Positions 30,790 to 44,463 are shown, counted from the first letter of the stretch. The stretch is 64,000 nt of DNA from Candidatus Wolfebacteria bacterium GW2011_GWE2_44_13 (GCA_001000675.1 LCHW01000001.1:218294-282293), one strand, 5' to 3'. Made by a program: numbers and translations. The notes: generated by a model not told the origin, from the sequence alone.

Positions 30790-31869
30790 ATGTTCGGAAT
30801 GAAATTATTCGGCTCATCTTCATATCTTGGTGTCGATATCGGCACGACATCTATTAAAATTGTTGAGATAGGGAAGGGGAGTTCCGGCCCGGAATTACAA
30901 AATTACGGTATTTTAGAGAGCTATGGGCACTTGGAGCGCGTGAATAACGCTATTCAAACGAGCTCGCTTAAAATTATGGAAGCGGATACAATCCAGCTTC
31001 TTAAGACACTTATTGCACGTTCGAATTTTAAATCAAAAGAAGTCATCGCTTCCATTCCCTCTTTTGCTGTTTTCATTACGTTATTTGAGATACCGCAAAT
31101 GAAAGATGCTGACATTGCTAAAGCAATGCAGTTTCAAATTGGGCAATATATTCCACTTCCTATTACCGAGGTTTCTATCGATTGGCTTAAAGTGGGTGAA
31201 CGTCAAGATGAGCAGGGCTTTGTGAAAGAGCAAATATTACTCGTTTCTATTCCAAATGAAACTGTTGATAAGTATCGACGTATTTTTTCTGCGGCTGGAT
31301 TGAATTTGCGAGCCATTGAAATAGAAAGCTTGTCGTTGTTGCGCGCTATTTCGGATGCATCAATGCCTCCAACGCTGATTGTGGATATTGGTTCGCGTTC
31401 AACAAACATTGCCGTCGTTGATAAGGGTAACTTGCGCTATAACTATCAGACTGATATGTCGAGTGCAGGTATTACGCAGGCGTTGGCAGGAGGGCTTGGG
31501 GTAAAAATTCGGCGTGCGGAAAAATTAAAACGAGAGCGCGGAATTCTTGGTGGCTCTGAATCGGAGCTATCCACATTGATGATACCGTTTGTTGATGCTA
31601 TACTTAATGAAGTAAAGCGTGCAAAAATAAAGTATGAACAAAGTTTCGGCAACGTCATTACGCAAGTTATTCTTGTGGGTGGTGGCGCGAAGATGCCGGG
31701 GATTGTTCCGTATGCGCAGGAGCAGCTTGGACTTCCGGTTATGATTAGTAATCCGTTTCTTAAAATACATTATCCTCCGTCAATTGAGCCTATTGTTCGG
31801 GATCTTGGCCCAACATTTGCTACTGCTATCGGTCTTGGAATTAAAGAATTTACGGACGGCTCTCTTTAA
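30790..31869 (+). CDS. pilM: type IV pilus assembly protein PilM
   Basis: Actin-like ATPase fold (LGVDIGTTSIKIVEI...). It leads the pilM-N-O series. Confidence 0.8.
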   Translation: MFGMKLFGSSSYLGVDIGTTSIKIVEIGKGSSGPELQNYGILESYGHLERVNNAIQTSSLKIMEADTIQLLKTLIARSNFKSKEVIASIPSFAVFITLFEIPQMKDADIAKAMQFQIGQYIPLPITEVSIDWLKVGERQDEQGFVKEQILLVSIPNETVDKYRRIFSAAGLNLRAIEIESLSLLRAISDASMPPTLIVDIGSRSTNIAVVDKGNLRYNYQTDMSSAGITQALAGGLGVKIRRAEKLKRERGILGGSESELSTLMIPFVDAILNEVKRAKIKYEQSFGNVITQVILVGGGAKMPGIVPYAQEQLGLPVMISNPFLKIHYPPSIEPIVRDLGPTFATAIGLGIKEFTDGSL

Positions 31870-31946
31870 ACGGAGTTGTAAGATCGTATCGCACAAAATA
31901 ATTTCGCCTACCATTTGTATTACATAGCTCTTATCTCTTAATTATT

Positions 31947-32495
31947 ATGCCTTATACACAATCAGCCCTACAAACTGAATTATCACGACAGCGCGAAGCT
32001 GCTGCCGGATGGCCTTGGCGATTAATGACCCTATCGGTTATCGTACTTCTTGCGGTGGTTGCCGTATATCTGGGTATGCGTTTTGGGTTTGAAGAGGCGT
32101 ATTTAAAAGGGGCTCTAGCCGATGAAGAAGCTACGTATGCAGCGACGTTTAAATCGGTAAGTCCTGAAGATCAAAAAAGGGTTTTCGATTTCTATTCTCA
32201 ACTCAGTAATATTGATACGCTGTTGAAAAAGCAGGGGAAGGTTACTCCGTACGCTGTAATTATTGAGCAAAATACGCTTAACGCAATTACATTCTCGAAT
32301 CTAGATATTAAAACAAGCGATACTGCTATTGTCGCGGTTATTGTCGGCAGAACGGCAACATACTCATCGATTGTGCAACAGTTAGGGTTGTTTAAAGCTG
32401 CTCCTGATGTTTCTGATGTAAAGCTGCTTGGTGCTCGGTTTGTTAATCCGACCGATGGCATTAATTTTTCTATCCAGATAACCTTTGATCGATAA
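31947..32495 (+). CDS. pilN: PilN-like type IV pilus assembly protein
   Basis: Single N-terminal TM plus a periplasmic domain. Its position after pilM fits. Confidence 0.5.
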   Translation: MPYTQSALQTELSRQREAAAGWPWRLMTLSVIVLLAVVAVYLGMRFGFEEAYLKGALADEEATYAATFKSVSPEDQKRVFDFYSQLSNIDTLLKKQGKVTPYAVIIEQNTLNAITFSNLDIKTSDTAIVAVIVGRTATYSSIVQQLGLFKAAPDVSDVKLLGARFVNPTDGINFSIQITFDR

Positions 32496-32501
32496 TCCCT
32501 T

Positions 32502-33086
32502 ATGAAATATCTCTCAAAACGATTTGCTAGCATCCTCCTTTCATTTGCTTTTTTTGCGGCGTCACTTGTTGTGTATGCCAATTTAATTCAGCCGACCTAC
32601 GATAACATTAAGGTGGAGCAGGGGAAGCTTATTGCTGCGCAGCAAAAAAATAGCGAATATACGAATGTTTTCACACGCTTAAAACAAGTTTCTACTAATT
32701 TCCAACAATCACCGGAATTACAAAATAGGGTCTCGATGGCATTTCCACTTGATGCGAACGTTTCAGATTCAATGAATCAAATTTCCGCAGTTGCTTTAGC
32801 GAATGGACTCACTATTGCATCAATTGATATTACGAGTGCTCCTGTTATTCCGACTGTTACTAAAAAAGCTGGCGACATTTCCTTTATAAAAGGAACAGGC
32901 GTTCTTAAGAATGCTATTGTTGTAGCAGGAACATACGAAGAAATAAAAGCATTTTTGCAAGGCGTTGAAACGGGTGTGCGTATCGCAAATATTAAGCTTG
33001 TGCGACTCACTCGATCTGCAAATCCGGCTACGCCGGAAATAATTAACGCAAGCGTCGAAATAGAAACCTATTATCAGGCTAAATAA
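32502..33086 (+). CDS. pilO: PilO-like type IV pilus assembly protein
   Basis: N-terminal TM, a coiled coil and a periplasmic domain. Its position after pilN fits. Confidence 0.5.
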   Translation: MKYLSKRFASILLSFAFFAASLVVYANLIQPTYDNIKVEQGKLIAAQQKNSEYTNVFTRLKQVSTNFQQSPELQNRVSMAFPLDANVSDSMNQISAVALANGLTIASIDITSAPVIPTVTKKAGDISFIKGTGVLKNAIVVAGTYEEIKAFLQGVETGVRIANIKLVRLTRSANPATPEIINASVEIETYYQAK

Positions 33087-33095
33087 CTATTACTT

Positions 33096-33389
33096 ATGGC
33101 AATTGTACTTGAAGGAGAAAAAAAGAATATTGATTGGAGTTTTGCGCTCGGGACAGTGGTTGTAGTTGGTATCGTTGGAGCCTCTATAATCTATTTGTTT
33201 TTTGTGAGCCCAGAAACAGTGCAACAACTCACGACTCCTGAGCAACGCACGTTGAGCGAGTTTTCAAAAACTTCTTTTAAGCCTGAAGAAATTTTAAATA
33301 GTGCTGCGTTTCAGGAACTGCGAACTGTGGCGCCGCTTACGAGCCCGACGGAAGAGGAGGTGGGGAAAATAAACCCTTTCCTTCCTTAA
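33096..33389 (+). CDS. small single-TM protein, possibly a PilP-like accessory component
   Basis: 97 aa with one TM helix. It sits last in the pilMNO sub-cluster. Confidence 0.35.
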   Translation: MAIVLEGEKKNIDWSFALGTVVVVGIVGASIIYLFFVSPETVQQLTTPEQRTLSEFSKTSFKPEEILNSAAFQELRTVAPLTSPTEEEVGKINPFLP

Positions 33390-33417
33390 AATTTTCTACG
33401 GCTGGTGCACTCCTTCG

Positions 33418-33498
33418 TTGTGGGCCCCCATTACCTCGGTCGAAGCACTATCGTGCATCTTCCTCGCTAATGCTCCCACGTCTTGTATTGCACTCAAG
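33418..33498 (+). promoter_or_regulatory. Conserved 5' element E2, upstream of pilB
   Basis: A paralogous copy of 27123-27203, with identical 39-bp spacing to the start codon. Confidence 0.55.
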
Positions 33499-33536
33499 CG
33501 TAAAAAATTTCTCAACTTTATTTTCGAACGAACTTT

Positions 33537-35276
33537 ATGGACAACAAAACACTCATTGACGCATTAATTCAAGATGGGCTCCTCGGAGAAATCGAAGGGC
33601 GTAAGGTGCTGCAAGAAGCGGCGCTTGCGCGTCGGCAAGTAGATGAGTTGATTTACGAACAGCGTTTAGTTGATGAAGAACAGCTTGCCATGGAAAAGGG
33701 CAAGCTTTTGAATGTGCCCTATCGAAAAATAGATCCACAAGAAATTCTCGATGATACGCTTAAACTGTTCCCAGAAGAAACAGTGCGTAACTATAAAGTT
33801 ATTCCGATCAGTATTAAGGATGACATGTTAGTGGTGGGGATGATTAACCCAGATGATGCACAGGCCCAGGAGGCGCTTAAATTTATTGCAAAGCAGCGTC
33901 GATTAAATTTGGGAGCATATATTATTACTCAAGCATTGTGGGAGCTTGTTTTACGTCGTTATTCTCCGTATCGAAGTCTTATTGACGAAGCGGTGAAGGC
34001 GAGCACATCACTTGCATCGAAAAATACTGGACCAACACAAGTTGTGCGGCTCGAAGAAAATAAGGGAGCAAGTGCTGACGAAACGCCTATTATCCGTATT
34101 GTATCGACCACACTTAAAGAGGCAGTTTGGGAAAAGGCTTCGGATATCCACATAGAACCACAACGCAATCGTGGGCGTATTCGCTTTCGTATTGACGGTG
34201 AGTTGCGGGAAGTTTCTTCGTTTCCGCTTGTTCTGCACGCATCGATTGTTTCTCGTATTAAAATTCTTGCGAACTTAAAGATAGACGAAACGCGTATTCC
34301 GCAAGACGGACGTTTTCGAACCGTGCTCTTTGGGCGCGATATCGATTATCGTGTTGCTACGTTTCCAACTCCTGTAGGGGAGAAGGTTGTTATCCGTGTG
34401 CTTGACCCATCGACTGGTTTGAAAGGCCTTGAAGATCTTGGATTACGCGGTAAAAATTTACAAACCGTAAAAACAGGGATTGAAAAACCATACGGCGTTA
34501 TTTTGATTACTGGTCCTACGGGATCTGGAAAAAGTACGACACTGTATGCATTGATGCAATTGCTAAATAAAGAAGACATTAACATTGTTAGTCTTGAAGA
34601 TCCAGTTGAATATTACATGGATGGATTAAACCAATCGCAGGTAAAGCCTGAAATCGGATATGACTTCGCCTCTGGTTTGCGACAAATTCTTCGACAAGAT
34701 CCAGATGTTATCATGGTAGGAGAAATCCGCGATGAAGAAACTGCGGGGCTTACTATCCAGGCTGCGTTAACCGGACATATTGTGCTTTCCACATTACACA
34801 CGAACAATTCGGTTGGCGTTATTCCGCGTCTTATGGATATGAAGGTACAGCCGTTTCTTATTCCTGCAGCACTTAACATTATGCTTGCACAGCGATTAAT
34901 AACGCGTTTGTGCCAACAATGCCGTGTGAGTGACGTTGCGTCGCCACAAGTTACAGAAGTTATTAGCCGTGAACTCGCACAGCTATCTCCAGAAATTCGC
35001 AGTGCGTATCCTGCTCAAGGACCCTATTCAGTATTCCATTCTCCAGGATGTGAAGCGTGTAAGGGGAAAGGAGTTTCAGGGCGCCTCGCAGTATTTGAGG
35101 TTATGATCATGACTCCTGAATTGGAAAAGGTTATCAATGAAGGCGCAACCGAAGCCTCGATTCTTGCGGAAGCTCGCCGACAAGGTATGGTTACGATGCA
35201 CCAAGACGGTATTCTTAAGGCGCTTGAAGGTTTGGTTTCAATTGAAGAAGTTTTGCGAGAGACCGTTGAAATGTGA
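33537..35276 (+). CDS. pilB: type IV pilus assembly ATPase PilB (GspE family)
   Basis: N-terminal GSPII_E_N domain, Walker A GPTGSGKST, Asp/His boxes and the tetracysteine motif CxxC...CxxC. Confidence 0.85.
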   Translation: MDNKTLIDALIQDGLLGEIEGRKVLQEAALARRQVDELIYEQRLVDEEQLAMEKGKLLNVPYRKIDPQEILDDTLKLFPEETVRNYKVIPISIKDDMLVVGMINPDDAQAQEALKFIAKQRRLNLGAYIITQALWELVLRRYSPYRSLIDEAVKASTSLASKNTGPTQVVRLEENKGASADETPIIRIVSTTLKEAVWEKASDIHIEPQRNRGRIRFRIDGELREVSSFPLVLHASIVSRIKILANLKIDETRIPQDGRFRTVLFGRDIDYRVATFPTPVGEKVVIRVLDPSTGLKGLEDLGLRGKNLQTVKTGIEKPYGVILITGPTGSGKSTTLYALMQLLNKEDINIVSLEDPVEYYMDGLNQSQVKPEIGYDFASGLRQILRQDPDVIMVGEIRDEETAGLTIQAALTGHIVLSTLHTNNSVGVIPRLMDMKVQPFLIPAALNIMLAQRLITRLCQQCRVSDVASPQVTEVISRELAQLSPEIRSAYPAQGPYSVFHSPGCEACKGKGVSGRLAVFEVMIMTPELEKVINEGATEASILAEARRQGMVTMHQDGILKALEGLVSIEEVLRETVEM

Positions 35277-35362
35277 TAGAATGCATGTAATAGATTCCGT
35301 GTGGCACGATACAATATTTCGTTTAGGCCCATGCGACAATACACAATACATATATTATTTTT

Positions 35363-36436
35363 ATGGATTACAAACAACAGCTAAACGATTTACTTCTCGC
35401 TACCGCAAAACAAAATGCTTCCGATCTTCATATTGGTGTTGGTAAATATCCAATGCTTCGTATTGATGGATTGTTGATTCCGCTCCAAAAAGATGGAGTG
35501 GTTACTCCTGAAGCTGCAACTGGCTTAATTACTGAATTGCTAACGCCACAGCAACTTGAAGTTGTTGATAAAAATCGAGAAATAGATTTTTCGTATACCT
35601 ACGAAGATAAGGCGCGATTTCGTGTAAACGTTTTTTACCAACGGGGTTTTATGGCTGCTGCGTTGCGCTTGATTCCTGCGGATGCGCGAACTATTGAAGA
35701 TCTTGGCTTGCCACCTATTTTGCATGATTTCACGAAACTGTCACAAGGGTTTGTGTTAGTGGTAGGACCTGCAGGACATGGAAAATCTACGACACTCGCT
35801 GCGCTTATTGATGAAATCAACCATGCGCGCACGGAGCATATTATTACTATCGAAGATCCTGTTGAGTATATGTTTGTGCAGGATAAATCAATTGTTTCTC
35901 AACGTGAAGTTTTGAGTGACACGCCCGATTTTCATACCGCGCTGAAGTCGCTACTTCGACAAGATCCTGACGTTGTTATGATTGGAGAAATGCGCGATAA
36001 AGAATCTATTGCCATTGCTATGACTGCGGCAGAAACAGGACATCTTGTATTTTCTACATTACACACAAACTCCGCAGCACAAACCATCGACCGTATCATT
36101 GATAGTTTCCCGCCTGATCAACAGAGCCAAGTTGCTTCACAGTTAGCCGCTACGTTAGTAGGTATTGTTTCGCAGCGATTAGTTCCACGTGTTGATGGAG
36201 GACGCGTTCCTGCGTGTGAAATCATGATTGTGAACTCAGCTATCCGGAACCTTATTCGCGAGCGAAAGGCGTATCAGATCGACCTTGTCATCGAAACCTC
36301 TATGCAGGAAGGTATGACAACCTTAAACAGGGCGCTTTCTACATTGGTGCGTAGTAGGCAGATAGCACTGGAAGAAGCCGAACTATACTCATTGAATGCA
36401 AGTGAGTTGCGCATACTTATCGAGCGTGTAACGTGA
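35363..36436 (+). CDS. pilT: twitching-motility/retraction ATPase PilT
   Basis: About 357 aa, lacking the N-terminal GSPII_E_N extension. Walker A GPAGHGKST and the PilT His box. Confidence 0.85.
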   Translation: MDYKQQLNDLLLATAKQNASDLHIGVGKYPMLRIDGLLIPLQKDGVVTPEAATGLITELLTPQQLEVVDKNREIDFSYTYEDKARFRVNVFYQRGFMAAALRLIPADARTIEDLGLPPILHDFTKLSQGFVLVVGPAGHGKSTTLAALIDEINHARTEHIITIEDPVEYMFVQDKSIVSQREVLSDTPDFHTALKSLLRQDPDVVMIGEMRDKESIAIAMTAAETGHLVFSTLHTNSAAQTIDRIIDSFPPDQQSQVASQLAATLVGIVSQRLVPRVDGGRVPACEIMIVNSAIRNLIRERKAYQIDLVIETSMQEGMTTLNRALSTLVRSRQIALEEAELYSLNASELRILIERVT

Positions 36437-36557
36437 GAAAGCTCGTAAGCTCGTAAGAAAAGAAGCTTGTAAGCAAATACAGACAGAGGTGGCGCGCCGC
36501 GTACTTCACTCACTGCATGCGTTTTACAGGAGGGAATTTAGTTGGAAAATCATACTC

Positions 36558-37769
36558 ATGAAATTTAAATACCAAGCAAGAAATAAAGACGGGGAACTGC
36601 AGGTTGGGTTCGTCGAGTCATATTCGCAAAACGGTGCGGCGGATGTTTTGGTATCACATGGCCTATATGTATTGAGTCTCGAAAATGAATCAAAGGATAA
36701 TTTCTTTGATAAGTTTTTGGCCATGTTTAAGCATGTTTCGTTGACCGATCTCATGATCTTTACGCGACAATTTGCAACGCTTATGGAGGCAAAGGTTTCC
36801 CTTGGAGACTCTATGAAAAATCTCCAAAAGCAAACGCGTAGTGCGATGATGAAAGAGGTAATTTATGAAATCGGTACGGATGTTGATAGCGGCTTGTCGT
36901 TATCGCAGGCACTTGAGCGACAAAAAGACGTTTTTTCTGAATTCTATGTCAGCATGATTCGATCCGCGGAAATAACAGGCCGGCTCGAAGAGGCTATTAT
37001 TTATCTTGCCGAATATATTGAAAAGCAGAAGCTGTGGCGTTCCCGCATTATCAACGCATTGATTTATCCGGCAATTCTTGTGGCCATGTTTCTTGGTATT
37101 GTGGTACTTATGGTCACAATGATCTTGCCGAATATTAAGCCAATCTTAATAGAAGCGGGTGATCTTCCTTGGTACACCGATGTGGTGCTTAACGGAGGTG
37201 ATTTTATTATTGCGTGGTGGTGGATTGCTATTATTGTTATCATTCCTGCAGTCATGTTTTTTCTTGAATATATCCGCAGTGATGAGGGAAAGGTTGTTGT
37301 TGATGAGGTGTTGTTGCGAACGCCGGTGTTTGGGTCGCTTTTTTCAAAAATGTATATCGCACGCTTTGCGGAGTCGCTCGGCATTCTTGTGAAGGGCGGT
37401 ATTCCTATTGCGCAAGCACTCGAAATTACGTCGCGTTCAATTGGGAGTAGCGTGTTTCAAGATATTCTCCATGATGTAAGTGATCGAGTTCGAGGAGGAG
37501 AGCTGCTTTCTGCTGCTCTTGAACGCTATGAGTACTATTTCCCTTCGCTGGTGAGTCAGATGATTGCTATTGGTGAAACAACAGGGCGACTTGAAGAATT
37601 GTTAGGACGTATTGCTATTTTCTATACCCGTGACGTTGATGATATGATGAGTCGGCTTGGTGAGTTGGTGCAGCCACTTATCATCGCAATCATTGGTGTG
37701 TTTGTTGGGTTCTTGTTTGCTTCTATCCTTGTTCCGATATATAATTTAGTTAAGTCGTTTGGCGGATAG
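36558..37769 (+). CDS. pilC: type IV pilus platform protein PilC (GspF family)
   Basis: Two T2SSF repeats with three TM segments. Start at MKFKYQ. Confidence 0.8.
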   Translation: MKFKYQARNKDGELQVGFVESYSQNGAADVLVSHGLYVLSLENESKDNFFDKFLAMFKHVSLTDLMIFTRQFATLMEAKVSLGDSMKNLQKQTRSAMMKEVIYEIGTDVDSGLSLSQALERQKDVFSEFYVSMIRSAEITGRLEEAIIYLAEYIEKQKLWRSRIINALIYPAILVAMFLGIVVLMVTMILPNIKPILIEAGDLPWYTDVVLNGGDFIIAWWWIAIIVIIPAVMFFLEYIRSDEGKVVVDEVLLRTPVFGSLFSKMYIARFAESLGILVKGGIPIAQALEITSRSIGSSVFQDILHDVSDRVRGGELLSAALERYEYYFPSLVSQMIAIGETTGRLEELLGRIAIFYTRDVDDMMSRLGELVQPLIIAIIGVFVGFLFASILVPIYNLVKSFGG

Positions 37770-37818
37770 TCCAAATGTATTTAATAGATATATTTAAAAT
37801 TAAAAAAAATAATCGTTT

Positions 37819-38268
37819 ATGAAATCACAGCTTTCTCAAAAAGGCAGCGCCTTGAGCCTGTCGAAAGGTTTTACACTCGTCGAAATGTTGATCGTTATTG
37901 CGATCATCGCAATTCTCGCATCTGTTTCTTTGGTCAGCGTTAGTGGCGTGCGTCAGTCTGCTCGCGATACAAAGCGTGTGTCCGATATCAACAAGATTCA
38001 GCAACAGCTTGAAGTATACTATTCACGAACTGGGAAGTATCCAACTGCTATCACTGATATTGAGGATTTTATTAATACAAAAGATCCGATTGGGGAATTA
38101 TATGAATATAGTGTTTATAATGGCGATCAGAGCTATGTCGTCGGTATTATGTTGGAAGGGGGAAGCTCGGCAACTGAAGAATCGAACGAAATAGACACTC
38201 TTCCTTCTGGAGCTGCACTTAGTAGTGTAGATTGTAACAATACCCTTGGTTTCTGCGTTGGTAACTAA
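37819..38268 (+). CDS. pilA: type IV pilin (major pilin candidate) with a class III prepilin signal
   Basis: The leader ends KG|FTLVEMLIVIAIIAILA (N-methylation motif with Glu5). Confidence 0.7.
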   Translation: MKSQLSQKGSALSLSKGFTLVEMLIVIAIIAILASVSLVSVSGVRQSARDTKRVSDINKIQQQLEVYYSRTGKYPTAITDIEDFINTKDPIGELYEYSVYNGDQSYVVGIMLEGGSSATEESNEIDTLPSGAALSSVDCNNTLGFCVGN

Positions 38269-38285
38269 TATTTATTTTATATACC

Positions 38286-39188
38286 GTGGATTACTTCCTG
38301 TATCTTTGTTTAGCCGTTTTCGGCCTAATCTTTGGAAGCTTTCTCAACGTTGTAACTATTCGATATAACCCCGACAAGGGGTTTTCGAATATTTATTCCT
38401 TGGGCGGGCGCTCCCATTGCCCTCATTGTCACAAGCAACTTACGTGGTACGAGCTTGTGCCTGTTTTTAGTTTTCTCTTTTTACTTGGCAAGTGTCGCCA
38501 TTGTGGGCATCGTATATCGTTTCAATATCCTGTTGTTGAATTATTGACATCGGCAATTTTTGTTACTGTTCCTTTATACGTTGCACATTTTTCGCGTATG
38601 TTTTTCTGGAGCGCTGATCTTTCGTACGGCTCATGGTTATTTTCCGCGCTCGCTGCCCTGTGGACGGCTGTGTTTGTACTATTTCTTATTCTCGCAGTCA
38701 TTGATTTGAAGCACATGATTATTCCTGATTCGATTAATATTGCGTTGGCATTTATTGGAGTCGCTATTGCCGGAGTAACACAATGGCTACATGGATTCGA
38801 TGCTATTCACGGATCATTTTTGCGTCATTACGCAATGATTTTCGGGTTGCGTGAATCTATTTGGACGAACCATCTATTCGCTGCATGTATTGGACTCCTA
38901 TTTTTTGGAAGTATTATCGTGTTGAGTAAAGGGCGTGCTATGGGGTGGGGCGATTTTAAATTAGCGGGTGCACTGGGCCTTATCTTTGGGTGGCCAGATA
39001 TCGTGCTTGTCCTAATGTTCTCGTTTATTATTGGCTCGATTATTTCTATTGGTCTTATGTTGCGTGGTCGCAAGACCATGAAAGATGCGGTTCCGTTTGG
39101 GCCGTTTTTGGTGTTAGGGGCAATAACTGTTTTTTTCTTTGGATTTCAATTGATGTCCCTATATTTTGACCTGTTCGGTGTGGTATAA
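38286..39188 (+). CDS. pilD: prepilin peptidase PilD (A24 family)
   Basis: N-terminal tetracysteine Zn motif (CPHC...CRHC) and a DiS_P_DiS peptidase core with the catalytic Asp residues. Confidence 0.8.
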   Translation: MDYFLYLCLAVFGLIFGSFLNVVTIRYNPDKGFSNIYSLGGRSHCPHCHKQLTWYELVPVFSFLFLLGKCRHCGHRISFQYPVVELLTSAIFVTVPLYVAHFSRMFFWSADLSYGSWLFSALAALWTAVFVLFLILAVIDLKHMIIPDSINIALAFIGVAIAGVTQWLHGFDAIHGSFLRHYAMIFGLRESIWTNHLFAACIGLLFFGSIIVLSKGRAMGWGDFKLAGALGLIFGWPDIVLVLMFSFIIGSIISIGLMLRGRKTMKDAVPFGPFLVLGAITVFFFGFQLMSLYFDLFGVV

Positions 39189-39195
39189 TGGATGC

Positions 39196-39780
39196 ATGGT
39201 ATTATTCGTCAAGCAATATATTCGAAAGAGAAAATCTCACAGCGATGGGGGGTTTACGCTTATCGAGATGACGATTGTAATTGGCCTTGTTGTGACACTA
39301 TCTATAGCCGCTACTGTTTTTAATAAATCAATTGCGCAACAAATTCTTGTTTCGCGAGAGCATGCAAAGGTAGTCGCTTTTTTTGTTCGAGCACGTTCTG
39401 CCGGACTTACAATTCCTAAAACTGATACTACCATTGAGCTTGTTTGTGCGTATGGTGTGCATATTGATGCCGCAACGCGCGCGATAACATTATTTAAAGA
39501 TTTAGGTACGCTTGGCGGAGCATGTGATTCAGCGGATCATCTATATACGATGGATGCCGAAAAAATAGACCAGACTATTTTAGACCCATTGGTATCTGTA
39601 ACGGCTAGCAATATTACAAATATCGTATTTATCCCTCCTTTTGGTGACGTTATTATTTCTGACGGAGGATTAGAGTATAGTTCGGCTACGGTTACGGTTT
39701 CGGGTGTTGTAACAAATCTTTCTCGTGGCGTGAAAGTAAATACGTTTGGGCAAATTACTGAATTTACACCGATACCATGA
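39196..39780 (+). CDS. minor pilin/pseudopilin with a prepilin signal
   Basis: Signal ...DGG|FTLIEMTIV. ATG at 39196. Confidence 0.55.
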   Translation: MVLFVKQYIRKRKSHSDGGFTLIEMTIVIGLVVTLSIAATVFNKSIAQQILVSREHAKVVAFFVRARSAGLTIPKTDTTIELVCAYGVHIDAATRAITLFKDLGTLGGACDSADHLYTMDAEKIDQTILDPLVSVTASNITNIVFIPPFGDVIISDGGLEYSSATVTVSGVVTNLSRGVKVNTFGQITEFTPIP

Positions 39781-40283
39781 AGCAACGACATATTAAAAAA
39801 ACAAGCGGATTTTTGCTTATCGAAGCCATGGTTGCTATGAGTGTGCTACTCACGAGCGTAATGGGTGTTTTTATATTAATGTCACAATCAATTAAACTGA
39901 CGCGCACCTTGAACGATCAATATGTCGCAACGTATCTTGCGGGAGAAGGAATTGAGATTGCAAAGAATATTCTTGATGCAAGCGTTGTTGCTGACCCTGC
40001 GGCATGGAATGTTAACAATAACTTTCATCAGAATGGATGTTATGCGCTTGATTATGCTAGTAATGTGCTTGCCGATTCGTGCTCGGATATGCCACTGAGC
40101 TTTAATGGAACGAACTACGGATACTCGGTTGGGGGAGAAACGAGTTCGTTTGTGCGAAAAGTTAACCTTGCCTTAGTTATGGACGGCTCTACGCAAATAG
40201 GTGTTCGGGTAACGTCTACTGTTACGTGGGCAGGAGGAACGCGAACATTTGCACTGGAAGATGTATTTTATGCATGGCTCTAA
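39777..40283 (+). CDS. minor pilin/pseudopilin (PilV-like)
   Basis: Signal ...TSG|FLLIEAMVAM. Its start overlaps the previous stop by 4 bp. Confidence 0.55.
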   Translation: MKQRHIKKTSGFLLIEAMVAMSVLLTSVMGVFILMSQSIKLTRTLNDQYVATYLAGEGIEIAKNILDASVVADPAAWNVNNNFHQNGCYALDYASNVLADSCSDMPLSFNGTNYGYSVGGETSSFVRKVNLALVMDGSTQIGVRVTSTVTWAGGTRTFALEDVFYAWL

Positions 40284-40288
40284 TTGAT

Positions 40289-40954
40289 ATGAACAGCAAT
40301 AAAAACAAACAATTACATACCGTGCGTAGGGAGGGCTTTACGCTCGTAGAGATGATTGTTGCCTTTGGCATCTTTACTATTTTTATCACGGTCGCCGCAG
40401 GAAGTTTTGTGCGGTCGGTGCGCATTCAGCGTGTATCGTTGCAGCTTATGGCTATTAACGACAACATGGCAATTACGATGGAACAAATGATGCGTGAGAT
40501 GCGTGTCGGGTATAATTTTTGTACGGCAGAGTCTATCCCTAATACGCTAAGCGCAACTGTGCAATCGCAATGTGCTTTCATGATCCCCGGGCAGGAAATT
40601 CAATTTTTTAAAAAGGGCGATGTTCCTGTTCGGTATCGAAGAACTGCATCAGGGAGTATTCAAAAAGGTGTTGGAGTAGCGGAGGACGAGCCAATTGATG
40701 TATGTGCGGAAGGAGAGTCTGTCGACGGAATTTGTTACCGAACGATTACCGCAGAAAATACCGATGTTATGGGGGCTAATTTTCAAGTATTGCATAATGA
40801 TGTTGAGATTGGATTGCTGTATCCGCCCCGTATTGTATTAAGCTTTTCAATTACAAGTACTGACCCATTAGTAAAAACAATGACTTCCCCAATCACTATC
40901 CAAACGACAATTAGTGCGCGTTGCGGAAAGCAATCGTGTCCTGCGGATAACTAA
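40289..40954 (+). CDS. minor pilin/pseudopilin (PilW-like)
   Basis: Signal ...REG|FTLVEMIVAFG. ATG at 40289. Confidence 0.55.
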   Translation: MNSNKNKQLHTVRREGFTLVEMIVAFGIFTIFITVAAGSFVRSVRIQRVSLQLMAINDNMAITMEQMMREMRVGYNFCTAESIPNTLSATVQSQCAFMIPGQEIQFFKKGDVPVRYRRTASGSIQKGVGVAEDEPIDVCAEGESVDGICYRTITAENTDVMGANFQVLHNDVEIGLLYPPRIVLSFSITSTDPLVKTMTSPITIQTTISARCGKQSCPADN

Positions 40955-40979
40955 ATGACAGATATAGTAATGCGTAACC

Positions 40980-41384
40980 ATGAAATTATCCCACTCAAAA
41001 TTTAAGAATCAGCGAGGACAGGCTATGATTTTGACCGTGCTCGTACTTTCGAGTATTGTGCTTTCTCTCTCTGCTATTGGCGGCTATTTAATGATGGTTC
41101 GATTACGAGTAAGTACTGATATCGGCAACACGATGCGCGCAATTTATATTGCAGATGCGGGGCTTGGATGCGAAGCATACAATCATTTTAAAAATGCGGA
41201 TGCTCCCGGGTTTTGCGCTCCTGGCACTGAACGAAATACATTTACGTTTGACGGAACGGTTGCGGATGCACCAAGCTTTTATCACGAAACAGAAACAATT
41301 TCTGCTGGTGTAGATTCCCGTATCAACGCAAAAGGGTATGCACGAACAGCAAGTCGCTCGTTACATCTCGAGTTCGGGTTTTAA
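40980..41384 (+). CDS. PilX-like minor pilin
   Basis: PilX N-terminal-like segment QRGQAMILTVLVLSSIVLSL. Confidence 0.45.
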   Translation: MKLSHSKFKNQRGQAMILTVLVLSSIVLSLSAIGGYLMMVRLRVSTDIGNTMRAIYIADAGLGCEAYNHFKNADAPGFCAPGTERNTFTFDGTVADAPSFYHETETISAGVDSRINAKGYARTASRSLHLEFGF

Positions 41385-41637: not shown

Positions 41638-44463
41638 ATGCAATTCAAAAACGTTGAAAAAAAGTGGAGAGCCGTTTGGGAGAAAGAGGGAATATACACC
41701 GTTAAAGATTCTGTCCCTGGCAAGAAGAATTTTTATAGTATGGTCATGTTTCCGTATCCATCTGGCAACCTGCATATTGGCCATTGGTATAACTTTGGTC
41801 CTGCGGATGTTTTTGCGCGTTTTAAGCGCATGACAGGGTTTAACGTCTTCTCCCCAATCGGATTTGATGCGTTTGGATTGCCTGCAGAAAATGCGGCTAT
41901 TAAAAATGGCATACATCCAAAAACGTGGACGTATAAAAATATTAAAACAATGACTGCTCAACTAGAGCAGATGGGCACGATGTATGATTGGGAGCGACGT
42001 GTTGTTACCGCTGACCCCGAATATTATAAATGGACGCAATGGATGTTTTTGCAGTTGTTTCATGCAGGACTTGCGTATCGCACAAAAGCGAAAGCAAATT
42101 GGTGTCCGAAAGATCATACTGTATTGGCAAATGAACAAGTTATTGATGGAAAGTGTGACCGATGTGGTACGGAAGTTGTACAGCGAAATATTGATCAGTG
42201 GCTTTTTAAAATTACTGACTACGCAGAGCGATTGCTGCAAGATCTTGAAGGGCTGGATTGGCCTGAAAAAACAAAGACCATGCAACGCAATTGGATTGGA
42301 AAATCCGAAGGCGTTACTATTAATTTCCCCCTCGTAACAAGCGAGGCAGTTGCGGTTGTCGATACTATGAAATTTAACCCATCGCTTGTGTCTTTGGTAC
42401 TTTCGGGAGAAAAATATATTAGCTATCGCTTAGAACCTAAACATATAAAGGTAGGGGATGTTTGCGGTTTAGTGCACGCGGGGACAAAAAAGCAGTTTGC
42501 ACTTGCCCGCATTACGGGAGTGGAAAAGCGCACCATGGGTGAGCTATCCGAACAAGAAGTTGGACACGAAAAATTTGCAAATCGCAAAGCGATGTACACA
42601 ACATATGCGAAGTACTACGGGAAGCCGGTTACAAATACTACGGATGTCTGGGTGTATACGTTCGAATGCATGCCTGAATCTGTTGCGGTGTTTACTACTC
42701 GAGTGGATACTATTTATGGATGTACGTATGTTGTTGTTGCGCCGGAACATGCATTAATTGAATCGTTTAAACAGCAAATCGAAAATTATAAAGCGGTTGC
42801 GACGTATGTAACTAAGTCGCGTAAAAAATTGGAGCGTGAGCGAATTATTGAAGAAAAAGAAAAGACAGGCGTTCGACTGCAGGGCGTTTCTGCAATCAAC
42901 CCATTTACGGGAGAAAGCGTTCCTGTGTTTGTTGCCGATTATGTGTTAGGGGGATATGGAACGGGTGCGGTCATGGCCGTTCCTGCACACGATGAACGTG
43001 ATTTTATATTTGCAAAACAATTTTCATTACCAATCAAAACGTCGATTGTTAATGCAAAAAAAGATGTGTCTGCTGGTTGCATGATGGACGATGGAACGCT
43101 CGTTGATTCGGAAGCATTTACGGGTATGGATTCAGCTACTGCGCGTACTCAGATGACGGCATGGCTCGAACAACAGAAGATGGGTGCGGGGAAAGTTAAT
43201 TATAAGCTACGTGATTGGCTTATTTCTCGTCAGCGCTATTGGGGATCGCCTATCCCGCTTGTATTTTGTGAACATTGCAAACAACGTATTGCAAGCGGTG
43301 ATTATAAGAAAGGGGAATTTACACAAGGAGAGCTATCCAACCCAGGATGGGTTGGCGTTGCGTCGGAAGCACTTCCCGTGCTTTTGCCATTAGTGAAGGA
43401 ATATTTACCGACTGAAGATGGTAAGTCGCCGTTGGCACATTCTAAGTCGTTTATGCGCGCTACGTGCTCAAAATGTGGCGGTAAAGGTATGCGAGAAACA
43501 GATACTATGGATACATTCGTGTGCTCTTCGTGGTACTATTTGCGCTATCCCGATCCGCAGAATGCAAAACAATTTGCGGATAAGAAAAAGCTCGCAGCGT
43601 GGCTGCCTGCCGATATGTATGTTGGTGGAGCGGAACATTCCGTTTTGCACCTTCTCTACGCACGCTTTTTTACGAAGGCACTGTATGATTTGAAGCATGT
43701 GCCATTTAAAGAACCGTTTGCTGCGTTGCGACACCAAGGGATGATTCTTGGACCTGATGGGCAGAAGATGTCGAAATCAAAAGGTAATGTGATTGATCCG
43801 GATGAGCTTGTTGGTACATTTGGTGCTGACGCAGTGCGTATGTACCTTTGTTTTATGGGTCCGTATGATCAAGGGGGAGCGTGGCAGCCAGGGGGAATGG
43901 TTGGTATTGCTCGATTTTTGCAACGCGTAGAGTCTCTGTACACTACGAATGCAAAAGATAGCGTGTGCAAAAAACCAAGCACCGCAGTCAATCCTTTGAA
44001 GAAGGTAATGCATCAGACGATAAAGAAAGTTACCGAAGATATTGCTGATTTTCATTTTAATACCGCAATAAGTTCGTTGATGATTTTACTCAATACGATG
44101 GATGAATATCGAGAACATCTTGATGGTGAGGTGCTCGAACAGTTCCTCTTATTGTTAGCGCCATTTGCACCTTATATTGCAGAGGAGTTATATCGAGAAG
44201 CGTTGGGACAAAAGAAATCGATTCACTTGGCATTGTATCCGAAATACAATCCTCATTTTACTGTGGAAAATGAATTCGATCTTGTTGTCCAAATTAATGG
44301 CAAGGTTCGTGATACTATTCGAGTGCCGAAAGGTATTACGCAAGAGCGAGCACGTGAGCTTGCGCTTACTTCGAAAAAAGTATTTGCCGTTGCTCCAGGT
44401 ATGCAGGTGCGAAAGGTTATCTTTGTGCCTGATCGATTGATTAATCTTGTTGTTGAATTATGA
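41638..44463 (+). CDS. leuS: leucyl-tRNA synthetase with a ~105-aa ASCH (YqfB-like) domain inserted at the start of the CP1 editing domain
   Basis: HIGH motif (HIGH is HIGHW here), a KMSKS-like motif (KMSKSKGN), the CP1 editing motif (TTRVDTIYGCTYVV) and the anticodon-binding domain. The inserted segment (aa ~233-349) aligns with YqfB-type ASCH domains. Confidence 0.9.
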   Translation: MQFKNVEKKWRAVWEKEGIYTVKDSVPGKKNFYSMVMFPYPSGNLHIGHWYNFGPADVFARFKRMTGFNVFSPIGFDAFGLPAENAAIKNGIHPKTWTYKNIKTMTAQLEQMGTMYDWERRVVTADPEYYKWTQWMFLQLFHAGLAYRTKAKANWCPKDHTVLANEQVIDGKCDRCGTEVVQRNIDQWLFKITDYAERLLQDLEGLDWPEKTKTMQRNWIGKSEGVTINFPLVTSEAVAVVDTMKFNPSLVSLVLSGEKYISYRLEPKHIKVGDVCGLVHAGTKKQFALARITGVEKRTMGELSEQEVGHEKFANRKAMYTTYAKYYGKPVTNTTDVWVYTFECMPESVAVFTTRVDTIYGCTYVVVAPEHALIESFKQQIENYKAVATYVTKSRKKLERERIIEEKEKTGVRLQGVSAINPFTGESVPVFVADYVLGGYGTGAVMAVPAHDERDFIFAKQFSLPIKTSIVNAKKDVSAGCMMDDGTLVDSEAFTGMDSATARTQMTAWLEQQKMGAGKVNYKLRDWLISRQRYWGSPIPLVFCEHCKQRIASGDYKKGEFTQGELSNPGWVGVASEALPVLLPLVKEYLPTEDGKSPLAHSKSFMRATCSKCGGKGMRETDTMDTFVCSSWYYLRYPDPQNAKQFADKKKLAAWLPADMYVGGAEHSVLHLLYARFFTKALYDLKHVPFKEPFAALRHQGMILGPDGQKMSKSKGNVIDPDELVGTFGADAVRMYLCFMGPYDQGGAWQPGGMVGIARFLQRVESLYTTNAKDSVCKKPSTAVNPLKKVMHQTIKKVTEDIADFHFNTAISSLMILLNTMDEYREHLDGEVLEQFLLLLAPFAPYIAEELYREALGQKKSIHLALYPKYNPHFTVENEFDLVVQINGKVRDTIRVPKGITQERARELALTSKKVFAVAPGMQVRKVIFVPDRLINLVVEL

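What the first reader, a model, noticed from the sequence alone, without database searches (positions are those of the whole stretch)
42330..42690. Leucyl-tRNA synthetase carries an inserted ASCH (YqfB-like) domain at the entrance of its editing domain
LeuS has about 105 extra residues between GVTINF and VFTTRVDTIYGCTYVV. E. coli LeuS has only about 10 residues there (NVNDYDNTLT). The inserted segment aligns along its whole length with the ~100-aa ASCH/PUA-like protein YqfB: LSGEKYISYRL vs LAGRKTITIR, IKVGDVCGLV vs FKTGDVLRV, and the C-terminal YAKYYGKP...VWVYTFECM vs IADIYPG...FYVIEFKCL. ASCH domains are RNA-binding or RNA-modifying, and YqfB-type proteins act as N4-acyl-cytidine amidohydrolases. 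An ASCH module grafted onto the CP1 editing domain of an essential synthetase is not a textbook LeuS architecture. It could add tRNA-modification sensing or proofreading, or a new nucleoside-hydrolytic activity.
Basis: partly seen in the sequence, partly recalled or inferred. Interest (0 to 1): 0.72.

Follow-up and report, generated by a model that had tools for sequence, protein, structure and literature searches.

The report
LeuRS carrying an inserted ASCH domain
The essential leucyl-tRNA synthetase of this tiny symbiotic (CPR) bacterium has a complete, apparently active YqfB-like N4-acylcytidine amidohydrolase (ASCH) domain spliced into a hairpin of its proofreading domain. I found no paper describing this architecture, although it also occurs in cultivable human-oral Saccharibacteria.

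Summary
The leuS gene (41638-44463, +, 941 aa) has 120 residues (aa 231-350, nt 42328-42687) in the first beta-hairpin of the CP1 editing domain. That loop has a median of 10 residues in 107 related LeuRS and 3 in Thermus LeuRS. The insert passes Pfam ASCH (33.5 bits; cut-off 21.2). It folds confidently (pLDDT 91.5), and its best structural match is E. coli YqfB (TM 0.79). It keeps YqfB's catalytic Lys, Thr/Ser, Arg, Glu and Tyr. LeuRS catalytic and editing motifs are intact.

The insert belongs to a CPR family of ~110-aa free-standing ASCH proteins. The same hairpin carries ASCH in Wolfebacteria, a 'Howlettbacteria' genome and Saccharibacteria. These include 'Ca. Southlakia epibionticum', where this LeuRS is Tn-seq-essential and the domain is not annotated. 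Some Saccharibacteria LeuRS also carry a NUDIX domain in another CP1 loop.

The insert was lost or gained at least 4 times among 14 close relatives, in the same syntenic locus. It is therefore an accessory module.

Function is inferred, not shown. I slightly favour a LeuRS-tethered N4-acylcytidine deacylase acting on tRNA (~0.35). Salvage of free modified nucleosides is almost as likely (~0.30).

The parts
41638..44463 (+). leuS coding sequence (941 aa plus stop), a bacterial-type leucyl-tRNA synthetase
   Evidence: ORF list. NCBIfam TIGR00396 leuS_bact 967 bits against cut-off 548. Pfam tRNA-synt_1, tRNA-synt_1_2 and Anticodon_1. 100% identical to P0001, 'Leucine-tRNA ligase, Candidatus Wolfebacteria bacterium GW2011_GWE2_44_13'.
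41773..41784 (+). HIGH motif (aa 46-49) of the aminoacylation site
   Evidence: Motif position. H46, G48 and H49 are invariant in 81 LeuRS.
42310..42327 (+). CP1 strand beta1, GVTINF (aa 225-230), immediately before the insert
   Evidence: Part of strand E222-234 in the full-length model.
42328..42687 (+). The insert (aa 231-350): N-linker, ASCH beta-barrel, C-linker
   Evidence: Interval length 120 aa against a median of 10 in relatives. AlphaFold pLDDT 91.5 alone and 80-96 in context.
42367..42669 (+). ASCH domain core (aa 244-344), Pfam PF04266 envelope
   Evidence: Pfam 33.5/37.1 bits against gathering score 21.2, profile positions 1-101 of 103. Foldseek top hit YqfB 9KYF.
42406..42429 (+). 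ASCH octapeptide G257-E-K259-Y-I-S262-Y-R264, the YqfB-type 'GKTR' motif with Ser in place of Thr. It corresponds to YqfB G19, K21, T24 and R26
   Evidence: In 16 LeuRS inserts K is 16/16, T/S 16/16 and R 15/16. In 20 more (mostly Saccharibacteria) K is 20/20, T/S 20/20 and R 20/20. The YqfB T24S mutant has wild-type-like activity (PMC6972931).
42562..42570 (+). G309-H310-E311 motif. E311 aligns with YqfB Glu74 (the general acid)
   Evidence: E is invariant in 16/16 LeuRS inserts and 80% conserved in the free-standing family.
42613..42618 (+). Y326-Y327. Y327 aligns with YqfB Tyr89 (substrate recognition)
   Evidence: Y327 16/16; 98% in the free-standing family. Role of Tyr89 from PMC6972931.
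42688..43197 (+). Remainder of the CP1 editing domain (aa 351-520). Includes the Thr-rich motif FTTRVDT (aa 352-358, nt 42691-42711) and the AHDERD motif with the editing Asp residues (aa 450-455, nt 42985-43002)
   Evidence: Pfam PF13603, aa 345-511 matched to profile positions 19-185. T353, T354, R355, D357, T358, D452 and D455 are invariant in 81 LeuRS. Positions.
43765..43779 (+). KMSKS motif (aa 710-714)
   Evidence: Invariant in 81 LeuRS.
44005..44337 (+). Anticodon-binding-type helical domain (aa 790-900)
   Evidence: Pfam PF08264, 87.5 bits.

Best explanation
The gene encodes a two-enzyme protein. A complete housekeeping LeuRS, with intact aminoacylation and editing sites, carries a self-contained YqfB-type ASCH amidohydrolase domain at the tip of the first beta-hairpin of CP1. 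The linkers are short: about 13 residues on the N side and 5 on the C side.

Shown here: the domain is real and confidently folded. It derives from a large CPR family of free-standing ~110-aa ASCH proteins. It keeps the Lys, Thr/Ser, Arg, Glu and Tyr that YqfB needs to hydrolyse N4-acylcytidine. It has been under purifying selection. It is nevertheless dispensable for LeuRS, because close relatives in the same syntenic locus lack it.

Inferred: the module still removes N4-acyl (most likely acetyl) groups from cytidine. LeuRS would then serve as the RNA-binding platform that small ASCH enzymes lack. The module would act on cytidines of the tRNA held by LeuRS, either in the tRNALeu body or at the CCA end that shuttles into the adjacent editing pocket. 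This would resemble the archaeal ASCH-HTH fusions, in which the HTH supplies tRNA affinity.

Confidence is about 0.85 for the architecture and catalytic competence, and about 0.35 for the tRNA-directed step. The figure given below refers to the full mechanism.
For: Fold and family: Pfam ASCH above threshold, AlphaFold pLDDT 91.5, best PDB match YqfB at TM 0.79-0.80, and a separately folded unit in the full-length model with pTM 0.79.

Active site: window residues K259, S262, R264, E311 and Y327 correspond to YqfB K21, T24, R26, E74 and Y89. They are conserved in 15-16 of 16 LeuRS inserts and in 19-20 of 20 further ones. K, E and Y are 3 of only 14 invariant columns among 119; my hypergeometric estimate is p of about 0.01. 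In YqfB, the K21A, T24A and R26A mutants are inactive, E74A is 100-1000-fold down, and T24S is like wild type (PMC6972931).

Selection: dS is saturated in every pair while insert dN is 0.22-0.45.

LeuRS intact: HIGH, KMSKS, the Thr-rich motif and the editing Asp residues are invariant, and the protein passes the leuS_bact equivalog.

tRNA link: all 19 ASCH proteins tested removed ac4C from tRNA. In archaeal fusions an appended HTH domain, not the ASCH domain, provides tRNA binding (bioRxiv 10.64898/2026.02.27.708502). The insert sits 1-2 residues before the Thr-rich editing motif. A second hydrolase domain (NUDIX) is inserted in another CP1 loop of other CPR LeuRS, and six Saccharibacteria LeuRS have both. 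Wolfebacteria-type inserts are basic (pI about 9) against a mean of 6.8 for the free-standing family.
Against: No activity or tRNA contact has been measured, and I could not inspect model coordinates, so the distance to the tRNA path is unknown. To my knowledge bacterial tRNALeu is not known to carry ac4C. In 'Ca. Southlakia epibionticum', which has an ASCH-LeuRS, the published Pfam annotation of the whole genome has no TmcA or TmcAL family hit, so no recognisable ac4C writer is present. The insert was lost or gained at least 4 times among 14 close relatives, with no compensating change in the LeuRS backbone: 1 of 592 conserved columns. Saccharibacteria-type inserts are acidic, like YqfB. Family-level associations (NUDIX, HIT, HD, kinase and phosphatase neighbours and fusions) point to nucleotide metabolism rather than to tRNA.
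Confidence: 0.35

Rival explanations
1. Nucleoside or nucleotide salvage and sanitation enzyme riding on LeuRS. The ASCH module hydrolyses free N4-acetylcytidine (or its nucleotides, or short RNA fragments) released from scavenged host RNA, as YqfB does in E. coli. The CP1 hairpin is only a permissive landing site that ensures constitutive co-expression in a minimal genome. There is no functional coupling to tRNALeu.
For: YqfB is an efficient free-ac4C amidohydrolase (PMC6972931). The closest relatives are about 620 clusters of small free-standing CPR proteins. These are fused to or neighboured by NUDIX, HIT, HD, AAA_33 kinase, histidine phosphatase and CTP synthase. A recent preprint reports a member of this lineage feeding on host RNA, together with loss of nucleotide biosynthesis (bioRxiv 10.64898/2026.06.21.733656; abstract, text). 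S. epibionticum has no other annotated ASCH and no TmcA/TmcAL. The insert is lost often without backbone compensation. Saccharibacteria inserts are acidic, like YqfB.
Against: This does not explain why the domain is kept inside a loop of the tRNA-3'-end-handling domain in several divergent CPR lineages. It also does not explain why NUDIX and a nucleotidyltransferase-like domain also landed in CP1. All other fusions of this ASCH subfamily that I examined are terminal fusions.
Confidence: 0.3
2. RNA-end-binding (PUA-like) accessory domain. The ASCH barrel is used mainly to bind RNA, for example the cytidines of the CCA end or the acceptor stem. It would tune translocation of the 3' end between the synthetic and editing sites. 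Hydrolysis would be secondary or vestigial.
For: ASCH has a PUA-like fold. PUA and YTH domains appear among weaker structural matches. From general knowledge, PUA domains bind RNA 3' ends. The insert position is adjacent to the Thr-rich editing motif. Wolfebacteria-type inserts are basic. The preprint authors caution that catalytic activity in some ASCH proteins may be an evolutionary remnant.
Against: The full catalytic set is conserved across inserts that are otherwise only 30-35% identical. LeuRS without the insert are otherwise unchanged. Saccharibacteria inserts are acidic.
Confidence: 0.12
3. Hydrolase for a different amide on the tRNA. The module would remove N-acyl groups from N-acyl-aminoacyl-tRNA, or other acyl lesions placed on the tRNA 3' end (for example by acetyltransferase toxins of hosts or competitors). 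This would add a repair step beside the editing site.
For: Only circumstantial. YqfB-type enzymes accept structurally different N4-acyl groups. The insert is next to the pocket that receives the aminoacylated A76. NCBIfam has a model for an IleRS with a GNAT acetyltransferase domain (NF040702), so synthetases fused to acetyl-transfer enzymes do exist. Hosts actively defend against these epibionts (bioRxiv 10.64898/2026.09.08.750141, title and abstract only).
Against: The residues that recognise the cytosine and ribose in YqfB (Tyr89 equivalent, GHE region) are conserved, which argues for a cytidine substrate. No toxin-antitoxin or GNAT gene lies next to leuS in the window or in syntenic loci.
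Confidence: 0.08
4. Functionless passenger. The insertion is neutral or selfish, merely tolerated, and on its way to being lost.
For: Repeated loss. The insert evolves faster than the rest of LeuRS within the Wolfebacteria clade: 54-55% identity against 70-92%. P0010 has lost the motif Arg.
Against: There are no stops or frameshifts in more than 30 independent sequences. Catalytic residues stay invariant while synonymous sites are saturated. Against distant LeuRS the insert is as conserved as the backbone: 53-57% against 51-67%. No intein or mobile-element signature was found.
Confidence: 0.05

Closest known systems
E. coli YqfB, N4-acetylcytidine amidohydrolase (PDB 9KYF/9KYH, 1TE7; NCBIfam NF003443)
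   Same: Same fold: best structural match, TM 0.79-0.80, rmsd 2.6 A. Same size (~103 aa). Same YqfB-type octapeptide G-x-K-x-x-T/S-x-R, plus the Glu74 and Tyr89 equivalents.
   Different: Only 22% identity. It fails the YqfB equivalog model (15.4 bits against 93). YqfB Asp27 and His70 are not conserved in register (L265; His is at -1 instead of -4 from the Glu). YqfB is a free-standing monomer, whereas here the domain is an internal insert in another enzyme.
CPR family of free-standing ~106-116-aa ASCH proteins (e.g. P0122, P0126, loci L005-L019), uncharacterised
   Same: These are the closest sequence relatives: 37-49% identity, profile E-values down to 4e-25. They have the same conserved columns: K, T, R, GHE, YY, F.
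   Different: They are free-standing or terminally fused (NUDIX, NYN, Peptidase_S51, AAA_33, methyltransferase, alpha/beta-hydrolase). The motif context is STWRLFDDK, against [IS][TS][YFI]RLE[PA]K in the LeuRS inserts.
Archaeal ASCH-HTH fusion proteins (Afu3ASCH, Pku4ASCH), reported as tRNA ac4C erasers
   Same: A GKTR-type ASCH catalytic domain is joined to a separate module that binds tRNA. The ASCH domain alone does not bind tRNA (bioRxiv 10.64898/2026.02.27.708502).
   Different: There the partner is a small C-terminal HTH domain and the fusion is terminal. Here the partner is a whole aminoacyl-tRNA synthetase and the ASCH domain is internal. Activity has not been tested here.
Canonical bacterial LeuRS with CP1 editing domain (E. 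coli 4AQ7/4ARC, T. thermophilus 2V0C/2BYT)
   Same: All LeuRS domains and motifs are present. The protein is 821 aa without the insert, which is a normal length.
   Different: Solved LeuRS have 3-15 residues where this protein has 120.
Other CPR LeuRS with enzyme domains inserted in CP1 (NUDIX: P0018, P0057 and others; nucleotidyltransferase-like: P0029). I found no description of these in the literature
   Same: Same host enzyme, same host domain (CP1), same phyla. Six Saccharibacteria LeuRS combine ASCH and NUDIX.
   Different: They use a different loop (PF13603 profile position ~146, window aa ~474-480) and a different inserted family.

Membership tests
ASCH superfamily (Pfam PF04266) | Sequence match to the family profile above the curated gathering score, over the full domain length | tested here: met
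   33.5 bits (whole protein) and 37.1 bits (insert alone) against 21.2; profile positions 1-101 of 103.
ASCH superfamily (Pfam PF04266) | PUA-like beta-barrel fold shared with solved ASCH structures | tested here: met
   AlphaFold pLDDT 91.5. The 17 PDB chains with E <= 1e-3 are all ASCH-fold proteins: YqfB, 3S9X, 1T62, ZmASCH, PH0355, TTHA0113.
ASCH superfamily (Pfam PF04266) | Semi-conserved octapeptide G-x-K-x-x-[E/T]-x-R | tested here: met
   G257-E-K-Y-I-S-Y-R264. Most homologous inserts have Thr at the S262 position.
YqfB-type ('GKTR') N4-acylcytidine amidohydrolases | Catalytic Lys21, Thr24 (Ser tolerated), Arg26 and Glu74, plus substrate-binding Tyr89 | tested here: met
   K259, S262, R264, E311 and Y327 align to these residues and are conserved. 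Mutant data from PMC6972931.
YqfB-type ('GKTR') N4-acylcytidine amidohydrolases | Orthology to YqfB (NCBIfam equivalog NF003443 above cut-off); conserved Asp27 and His70 | tested here: not met
   15.4 bits against cut-off 93. The Asp27 position is Leu265. The His70 position is not His, although a conserved His310 sits next to E311.
YqfB-type ('GKTR') N4-acylcytidine amidohydrolases | Hydrolysis of N4-acetylcytidine (free or in tRNA) | not testable with these tools
   This needs an enzyme assay. Only residue conservation supports it.
Bacterial leucyl-tRNA synthetase (NCBIfam TIGR00396 leuS_bact) | Equivalog score above cut-off; HIGH and KMSKS motifs | tested here: met
   967 bits against 548. 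HIGH at aa 46-49 and KMSKS at aa 710-714.
Bacterial leucyl-tRNA synthetase (NCBIfam TIGR00396 leuS_bact) | CP1 editing domain with Thr-rich motif and conserved Asp residues | tested here: met
   PF13603 at 191.8 bits. FTTRVDT at aa 352-358 and AHDERD at aa 450-455, invariant in 81 LeuRS.
Bacterial leucyl-tRNA synthetase (NCBIfam TIGR00396 leuS_bact) | It is the housekeeping (sole, essential) LeuRS of the organism | tested here: inconclusive
   The gene lies in the same syntenic locus as the insert-less leuS of relatives. The ASCH-bearing leuS of S. epibionticum (SEML1_0597, K01869) is scored GD/ES/ES in Tn-seq. The rest of this organism's genome was not available to check for a second leuS.
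Inteins and mobile in-frame elements (considered) | Hint or endonuclease domains and splice-junction residues (Cys/Ser/Thr at the N-junction, His-Asn at the C-junction) | tested here: not met
   No such Pfam hits. The junctions are F230|PLV and SVA|VFT.

The most novel reading that the evidence does not exclude
The CP1 editing domain of CPR LeuRS is a docking platform for a modular tRNA-end repair or surveillance system. ASCH (a deacylase) and NUDIX, inserted in two CP1 loops, would act together on the tRNA 3' end or its adducts. They might reverse acylation damage or host-toxin modification, or clean up modified cytidines incorporated from scavenged host nucleotides. That would make this an RNA-modification eraser built into an aminoacyl-tRNA synthetase.
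Probability: 0.12. Interest if true: 0.9.

Novelty: new variant of a known kind. Interest (0 to 1): 0.64.

Why it matters
Bacterial aminoacyl-tRNA synthetases rarely carry whole foreign enzyme domains. I found no paper describing an ASCH or NUDIX domain inside LeuRS in five full-text searches. The structure-based annotation of the model organism 'Ca. Southlakia epibionticum' lists no ASCH domain for this protein and assigns much of the insert region to the editing domain.

ASCH proteins have just been proposed as tRNA N4-acetylcytidine erasers. A version tethered to a synthetase would give that idea a defined RNA partner.

If the salvage reading is right instead, the module shows how ultra-small symbionts that live on host RNA deal with modified nucleosides.

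Because the same architecture is in a cultivable, naturally transformable Saccharibacterium, in an essential gene, the question can be tested by an in-frame deletion or point mutants.

Tried and rejected
(1) A word-indexed homologue search with the insert alone found nothing. This was a limit of the index, not absence, because the exhaustive profile search found 620 relatives.

(2) phmmer and profile searches of the insert against PDB sequences gave only marginal YqfB hits (E 0.06-0.8). The fold comparison settled the relationship.

(3) dN/dS could not be computed because dS was saturated in all 10 pairs. I report only that dN is bounded while dS is saturated.

(4) A single capture event could not be established. 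All LeuRS inserts fall in one NJ clade, but with 16/100 bootstrap support, and four free-standing proteins are nested inside it. Wolfebacteria-type and Saccharibacteria-type inserts are no more alike than either is to the free-standing family.

(5) The basic-charge shift that I first took as a sign of RNA binding holds for 14 of 16 inserts in the first set but not for the Saccharibacteria type. It is weak evidence.

(6) A search for LeuRS backbone positions that co-vary with insert presence found essentially none: 1 of 592.

(7) Intein, assembly artefact and second ASCH copy in the window were all rejected.

(8) The gene neighbourhood of leuS (type IV pilus cluster upstream, HtrA-like protease downstream) gives no functional hint.

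(9) The AFDB fold library was unavailable.

(10) Model coordinates cannot be inspected with these tools, so the orientation of ASCH relative to the tRNA path is unknown.
Full report
OBSERVATION

The window encodes a 941-aa protein at 41638-44463 (+). It is a bacterial leucyl-tRNA synthetase: NCBIfam equivalog TIGR00396 at 967 bits against a cut-off of 548, with the Pfam class-I core, LeuRS editing domain and anticodon-binding domain. It is 100% identical to the LeuRS of 'Candidatus Wolfebacteria bacterium GW2011_GWE2_44_13', a member of the Candidate Phyla Radiation (CPR, Patescibacteria).

GVTINF is aa 225-230 and VFTTR starts at aa 351. In the 107 related LeuRS without the insert, the same interval has a median of 10 residues (range 4-52). 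In Thermus thermophilus LeuRS the flanks align so as to leave 3 residues. The extra ~110 residues are therefore real and exceptional.

WHAT THE INSERT IS

Pfam ASCH (PF04266) matches aa 244-344 over essentially the whole profile. The score is 33.5 bits in context and 37.1 bits alone, against a gathering score of 21.2.

An AlphaFold model of the insert, built with 13 homologous inserts, has pLDDT 91.5. Its best PDB matches are the E. coli ac4C amidohydrolase YqfB (9KYF/9KYH; E 1e-7, TM 0.79-0.80 on the target, rmsd 2.6 A). The other matches with E <= 1e-3 are also solved ASCH-fold structures.

In the full-length model (pLDDT 89.8, pTM 0.79) the insert keeps the same secondary structure at pLDDT 80-96. 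It is flanked by the two CP1 strands, E222-234 and E348-353. The first and last strands of the barrel (E240-246 and E336-345) are the ones joined to the two hairpin strands. This is how a whole domain can sit in a hairpin tip.

ACTIVE SITE

The ASCH octapeptide is G257-E-K259-Y-I-S262-Y-R264, which is the YqfB-type 'GKTR' variant. The following residues align to YqfB:
- K259 to Lys21
- S262 to Thr24
- R264 to Arg26
- E311 to Glu74
- Y327 to Tyr89

In YqfB, K21A, T24A and R26A are inactive, E74A is 100-1000-fold down, and T24S is like wild type (PMC6972931). The Ser in the window protein is therefore compatible with activity.

Across 16 LeuRS inserts these five positions are conserved 16, 16 (14 T, 2 S), 15, 16 and 16 times. 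Across 20 more inserts, mostly from Saccharibacteria, they are conserved 20, 20, 20, 19 and 20 times. Overall identity between the groups is only about 33%.

The insert is not a YqfB orthologue: NF003443 scores 15.4 bits against 93, and the Asp27 and His70 positions differ.

LeuRS's own HIGH, KMSKS, Thr-rich (FTTRVDT) and AHDERD motifs are intact and invariant.

ORIGIN

An exhaustive profile search of 1.84 billion representatives found 620 relatives with E <= 1e-3, of which 229 had E <= 1e-10. Most are 106-116-aa free-standing proteins.

In GTDB genomes these lie in Saccharibacteria, Berkelbacteria, Zambryskibacteria and Paceibacteria. They carry the motif LSGEK[YN]STWRLFDDK...GHEKF.

The same subfamily is terminally fused to NUDIX (twice), NYN, Peptidase_S51, an AAA_33 kinase, a methyltransferase, alpha/beta-hydrolases and PNPOx.

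Near 14 free-standing genes I found NUDIX (3 proteins), and 2 each of the CCA-adding-enzyme head domain, HIT, HD, histidine phosphatase and a further ASCH. This sample is small and was not tested statistically.

DISTRIBUTION IN LeuRS

The same hairpin carries ASCH in the following:
- ten close Wolfebacteria LeuRS (P0001-P0010)
- the more distant P0015, P0017 and P0049
- a 'Howlettbacteria' genome (L004)
- P0121 and P0143
- a large clade of Saccharibacteria LeuRS

The Saccharibacteria clade includes a 246-member cluster and the LeuRS of 'Ca. Southlakia epibionticum'. In that organism's published tables the gene SEML1_0597 (2751 nt, K01869) is labelled 'hypothetical protein'. It is scored growth-defect/essential in Tn-seq. 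No ASCH domain is listed for it, and residues 266-520, which include much of the insert, are assigned to a single domain in the ECOD parse (PMC10633639 supplements). Equating P0291 with SEML1_0597 rests on name, length and gene neighbours, so it is an inference.

PRESENCE AND ABSENCE

Within a Wolfebacteria clade of 14 LeuRS (monophyletic in 200/200 bootstraps), four proteins lack the insert and are scattered among those that have it. Parsimony needs at least 4 changes in 192/200 replicates and at least 3 in the rest.

The insert-less genes sit in the same locus: type IV pilus cluster, leuS, HtrA-like protease, Na+/H+ exchanger, ScpB. Each has a different short loop. This fits independent deletions, or allele exchange.

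Saccharibacteria show the same pattern for ASCH (at least 2 changes) and for NUDIX.

Loss leaves no trace in the rest of LeuRS: only 1 of 592 conserved columns changes. The insert is therefore a plug-in accessory, not a part of the LeuRS mechanism.

SELECTION

dS is saturated in every comparison, while insert dN is 0.22-0.45. This implies purifying selection without giving a usable ratio.

Inside the Wolfebacteria clade the insert diverges faster than the backbone: 54-55% against 70-92% identity. Against distant LeuRS it is as conserved as the backbone: 53-57% against 51-67%.

ONE CAPTURE OR SEVERAL

In an NJ tree rooted with YqfB, all LeuRS inserts form one clade together with four free-standing Saccharibacteria-like proteins. 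Support is only 16/100. The Wolfebacteria type alone is supported at 95/100. This question is unresolved.

OTHER INSERTS

Other CPR LeuRS have a NUDIX domain (for example P0018, aa 384-501) or a nucleotidyltransferase-like domain (P0029). These lie in a different CP1 loop, at PF13603 position ~146, equivalent to window aa ~474-480. Six Saccharibacteria LeuRS of 1060-1086 aa carry an insert in both loops. Pfam recognises both ASCH and NUDIX in five of them; in P0328 it recognises only NUDIX, and ASCH is inferred from the alignment.

MECHANISM

What is shown: a folded ASCH domain with a conserved catalytic set, inside a complete LeuRS. It is accessory and evolutionarily labile.

What is inferred: it hydrolyses N4-acylcytidine.

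For the substrate context I weigh two readings almost equally.

The tRNA-tethered reading (0.35) rests on four points:
- The position is beside the editing pocket.
- A second hydrolase domain is inserted in CP1.
- A report states that all 19 tested ASCH proteins deacetylate tRNA ac4C, and that archaeal versions obtain tRNA affinity from an appended domain (bioRxiv 10.64898/2026.02.27.708502).
- As a general rule, fused proteins tend to share a substrate.

The salvage reading (0.30) rests on four points:
- YqfB's known role is on free ac4C.
- The family's partners are nucleotide-metabolism proteins.
- The S. epibionticum annotation has no TmcA/TmcAL hit and no second ASCH.

Smaller weights go to an RNA-end-binding role, another amide substrate, and a functionless passenger.

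NOVELTY

Both families are well known, and public Pfam precomputations already tag some of these proteins with PF04266. Five full-text searches found no paper that describes ASCH or NUDIX inside LeuRS, and the S. epibionticum annotation does not list the domain. I class it as a new variant of a known kind.

Noticed in passing
Not in the window; proteins P0018, P0023, P0028, P0036, P0037, P0039, P0057, P0095 (relatives of window 41638-44463); equivalent to window aa ~474-480, nt ~43057-43077: Other CPR LeuRS carry a NUDIX hydrolase domain (for example P0018, aa 384-501) inserted in a different CP1 loop, at PF13603 profile position ~146. I found no paper describing this.
   Followed up: partly
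Proteins P0334, P0335, P0331, P0337, P0338, P0328 (Saccharibacteria LeuRS, 1060-1086 aa): These LeuRS carry inserts in both CP1 loops: ASCH in the first hairpin and NUDIX in the later loop. Pfam recognises both domains in five; in P0328 ASCH is seen only in the alignment. Close relatives have ASCH only (913-924 aa) or neither (809-811 aa).
   Followed up: partly
Protein P0029 (952 aa), aa 373-470: One CPR LeuRS has a nucleotidyltransferase-like domain (Pfam Aminoglyc_resit PF10706, 32.5 bits; NTP_transf_5) at the same CP1 loop that holds NUDIX in others.
   Followed up: no
Protein P0291 / S. epibionticum SEML1_0597; locus L020 3001-5751: The ASCH-bearing LeuRS of the cultivable, transformable 'Ca. 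Southlakia epibionticum' is labelled 'hypothetical protein', is Tn-seq essential, and has no ASCH domain listed in the published structure-based annotation. That annotation has no TmcA/TmcAL Pfam hit anywhere in the genome.
   Followed up: partly
Loci L005-L019 (GTDB CPR genomes), match at about 4001-4330 in most: A large family (about 620 clusters at 50% identity) of ~110-aa free-standing YqfB-type ASCH proteins is spread through CPR. They are often next to or fused with NUDIX, HIT, HD, kinase, NYN or CCA-adding enzyme genes. L008 3851-4876 encodes an ASCH-NUDIX fusion.
   Followed up: partly
Proteins P0136, P0141, P0232, P0206: Four free-standing proteins are 50-56% identical to the Saccharibacteria LeuRS insert and nest inside the LeuRS-insert clade. 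They may be the donors, or domains that escaped from LeuRS.
   Followed up: no
Locus L001 / protein P0017, N-terminal linker of the insert: One ASCH-LeuRS has an extra ~48-residue low-complexity, charged linker (SEAKQNQKSQIRSFAEAQDDRGGSHSERSEAISETAEQIAASQAPRND) between CP1 strand beta1 and the ASCH barrel.
   Followed up: no
window 30790-41384 (+): A complete type IV pilus gene cluster lies directly upstream of leuS: PilM, PilB-like and PilT-like ATPases, PilC, prepilin peptidase, and several small pilin-like ORFs. It is conserved in synteny in relatives (L021, L023).
   Followed up: partly
window 27242-29617 (+): A 791-aa protein has weak matches to type IV secretion coupling proteins (T4SS-DNA_transf, TrwB_AAD_bind) and HerA-like ATPase.
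   Followed up: no
window 11419-12573 (+): A 384-aa protein has a Kazal-type serine protease inhibitor domain and a CARDB domain. In my experience Kazal domains are uncommon in bacteria.
   Followed up: no
NCBIfam hit list for window 41638-44460: NCBIfam holds an 'exception' model, NF040702, for an isoleucyl-tRNA synthetase with an N-acetyltransferase (GNAT) domain. This is another synthetase joined to an acetyl-transfer enzyme and may be worth comparing.
   Followed up: no
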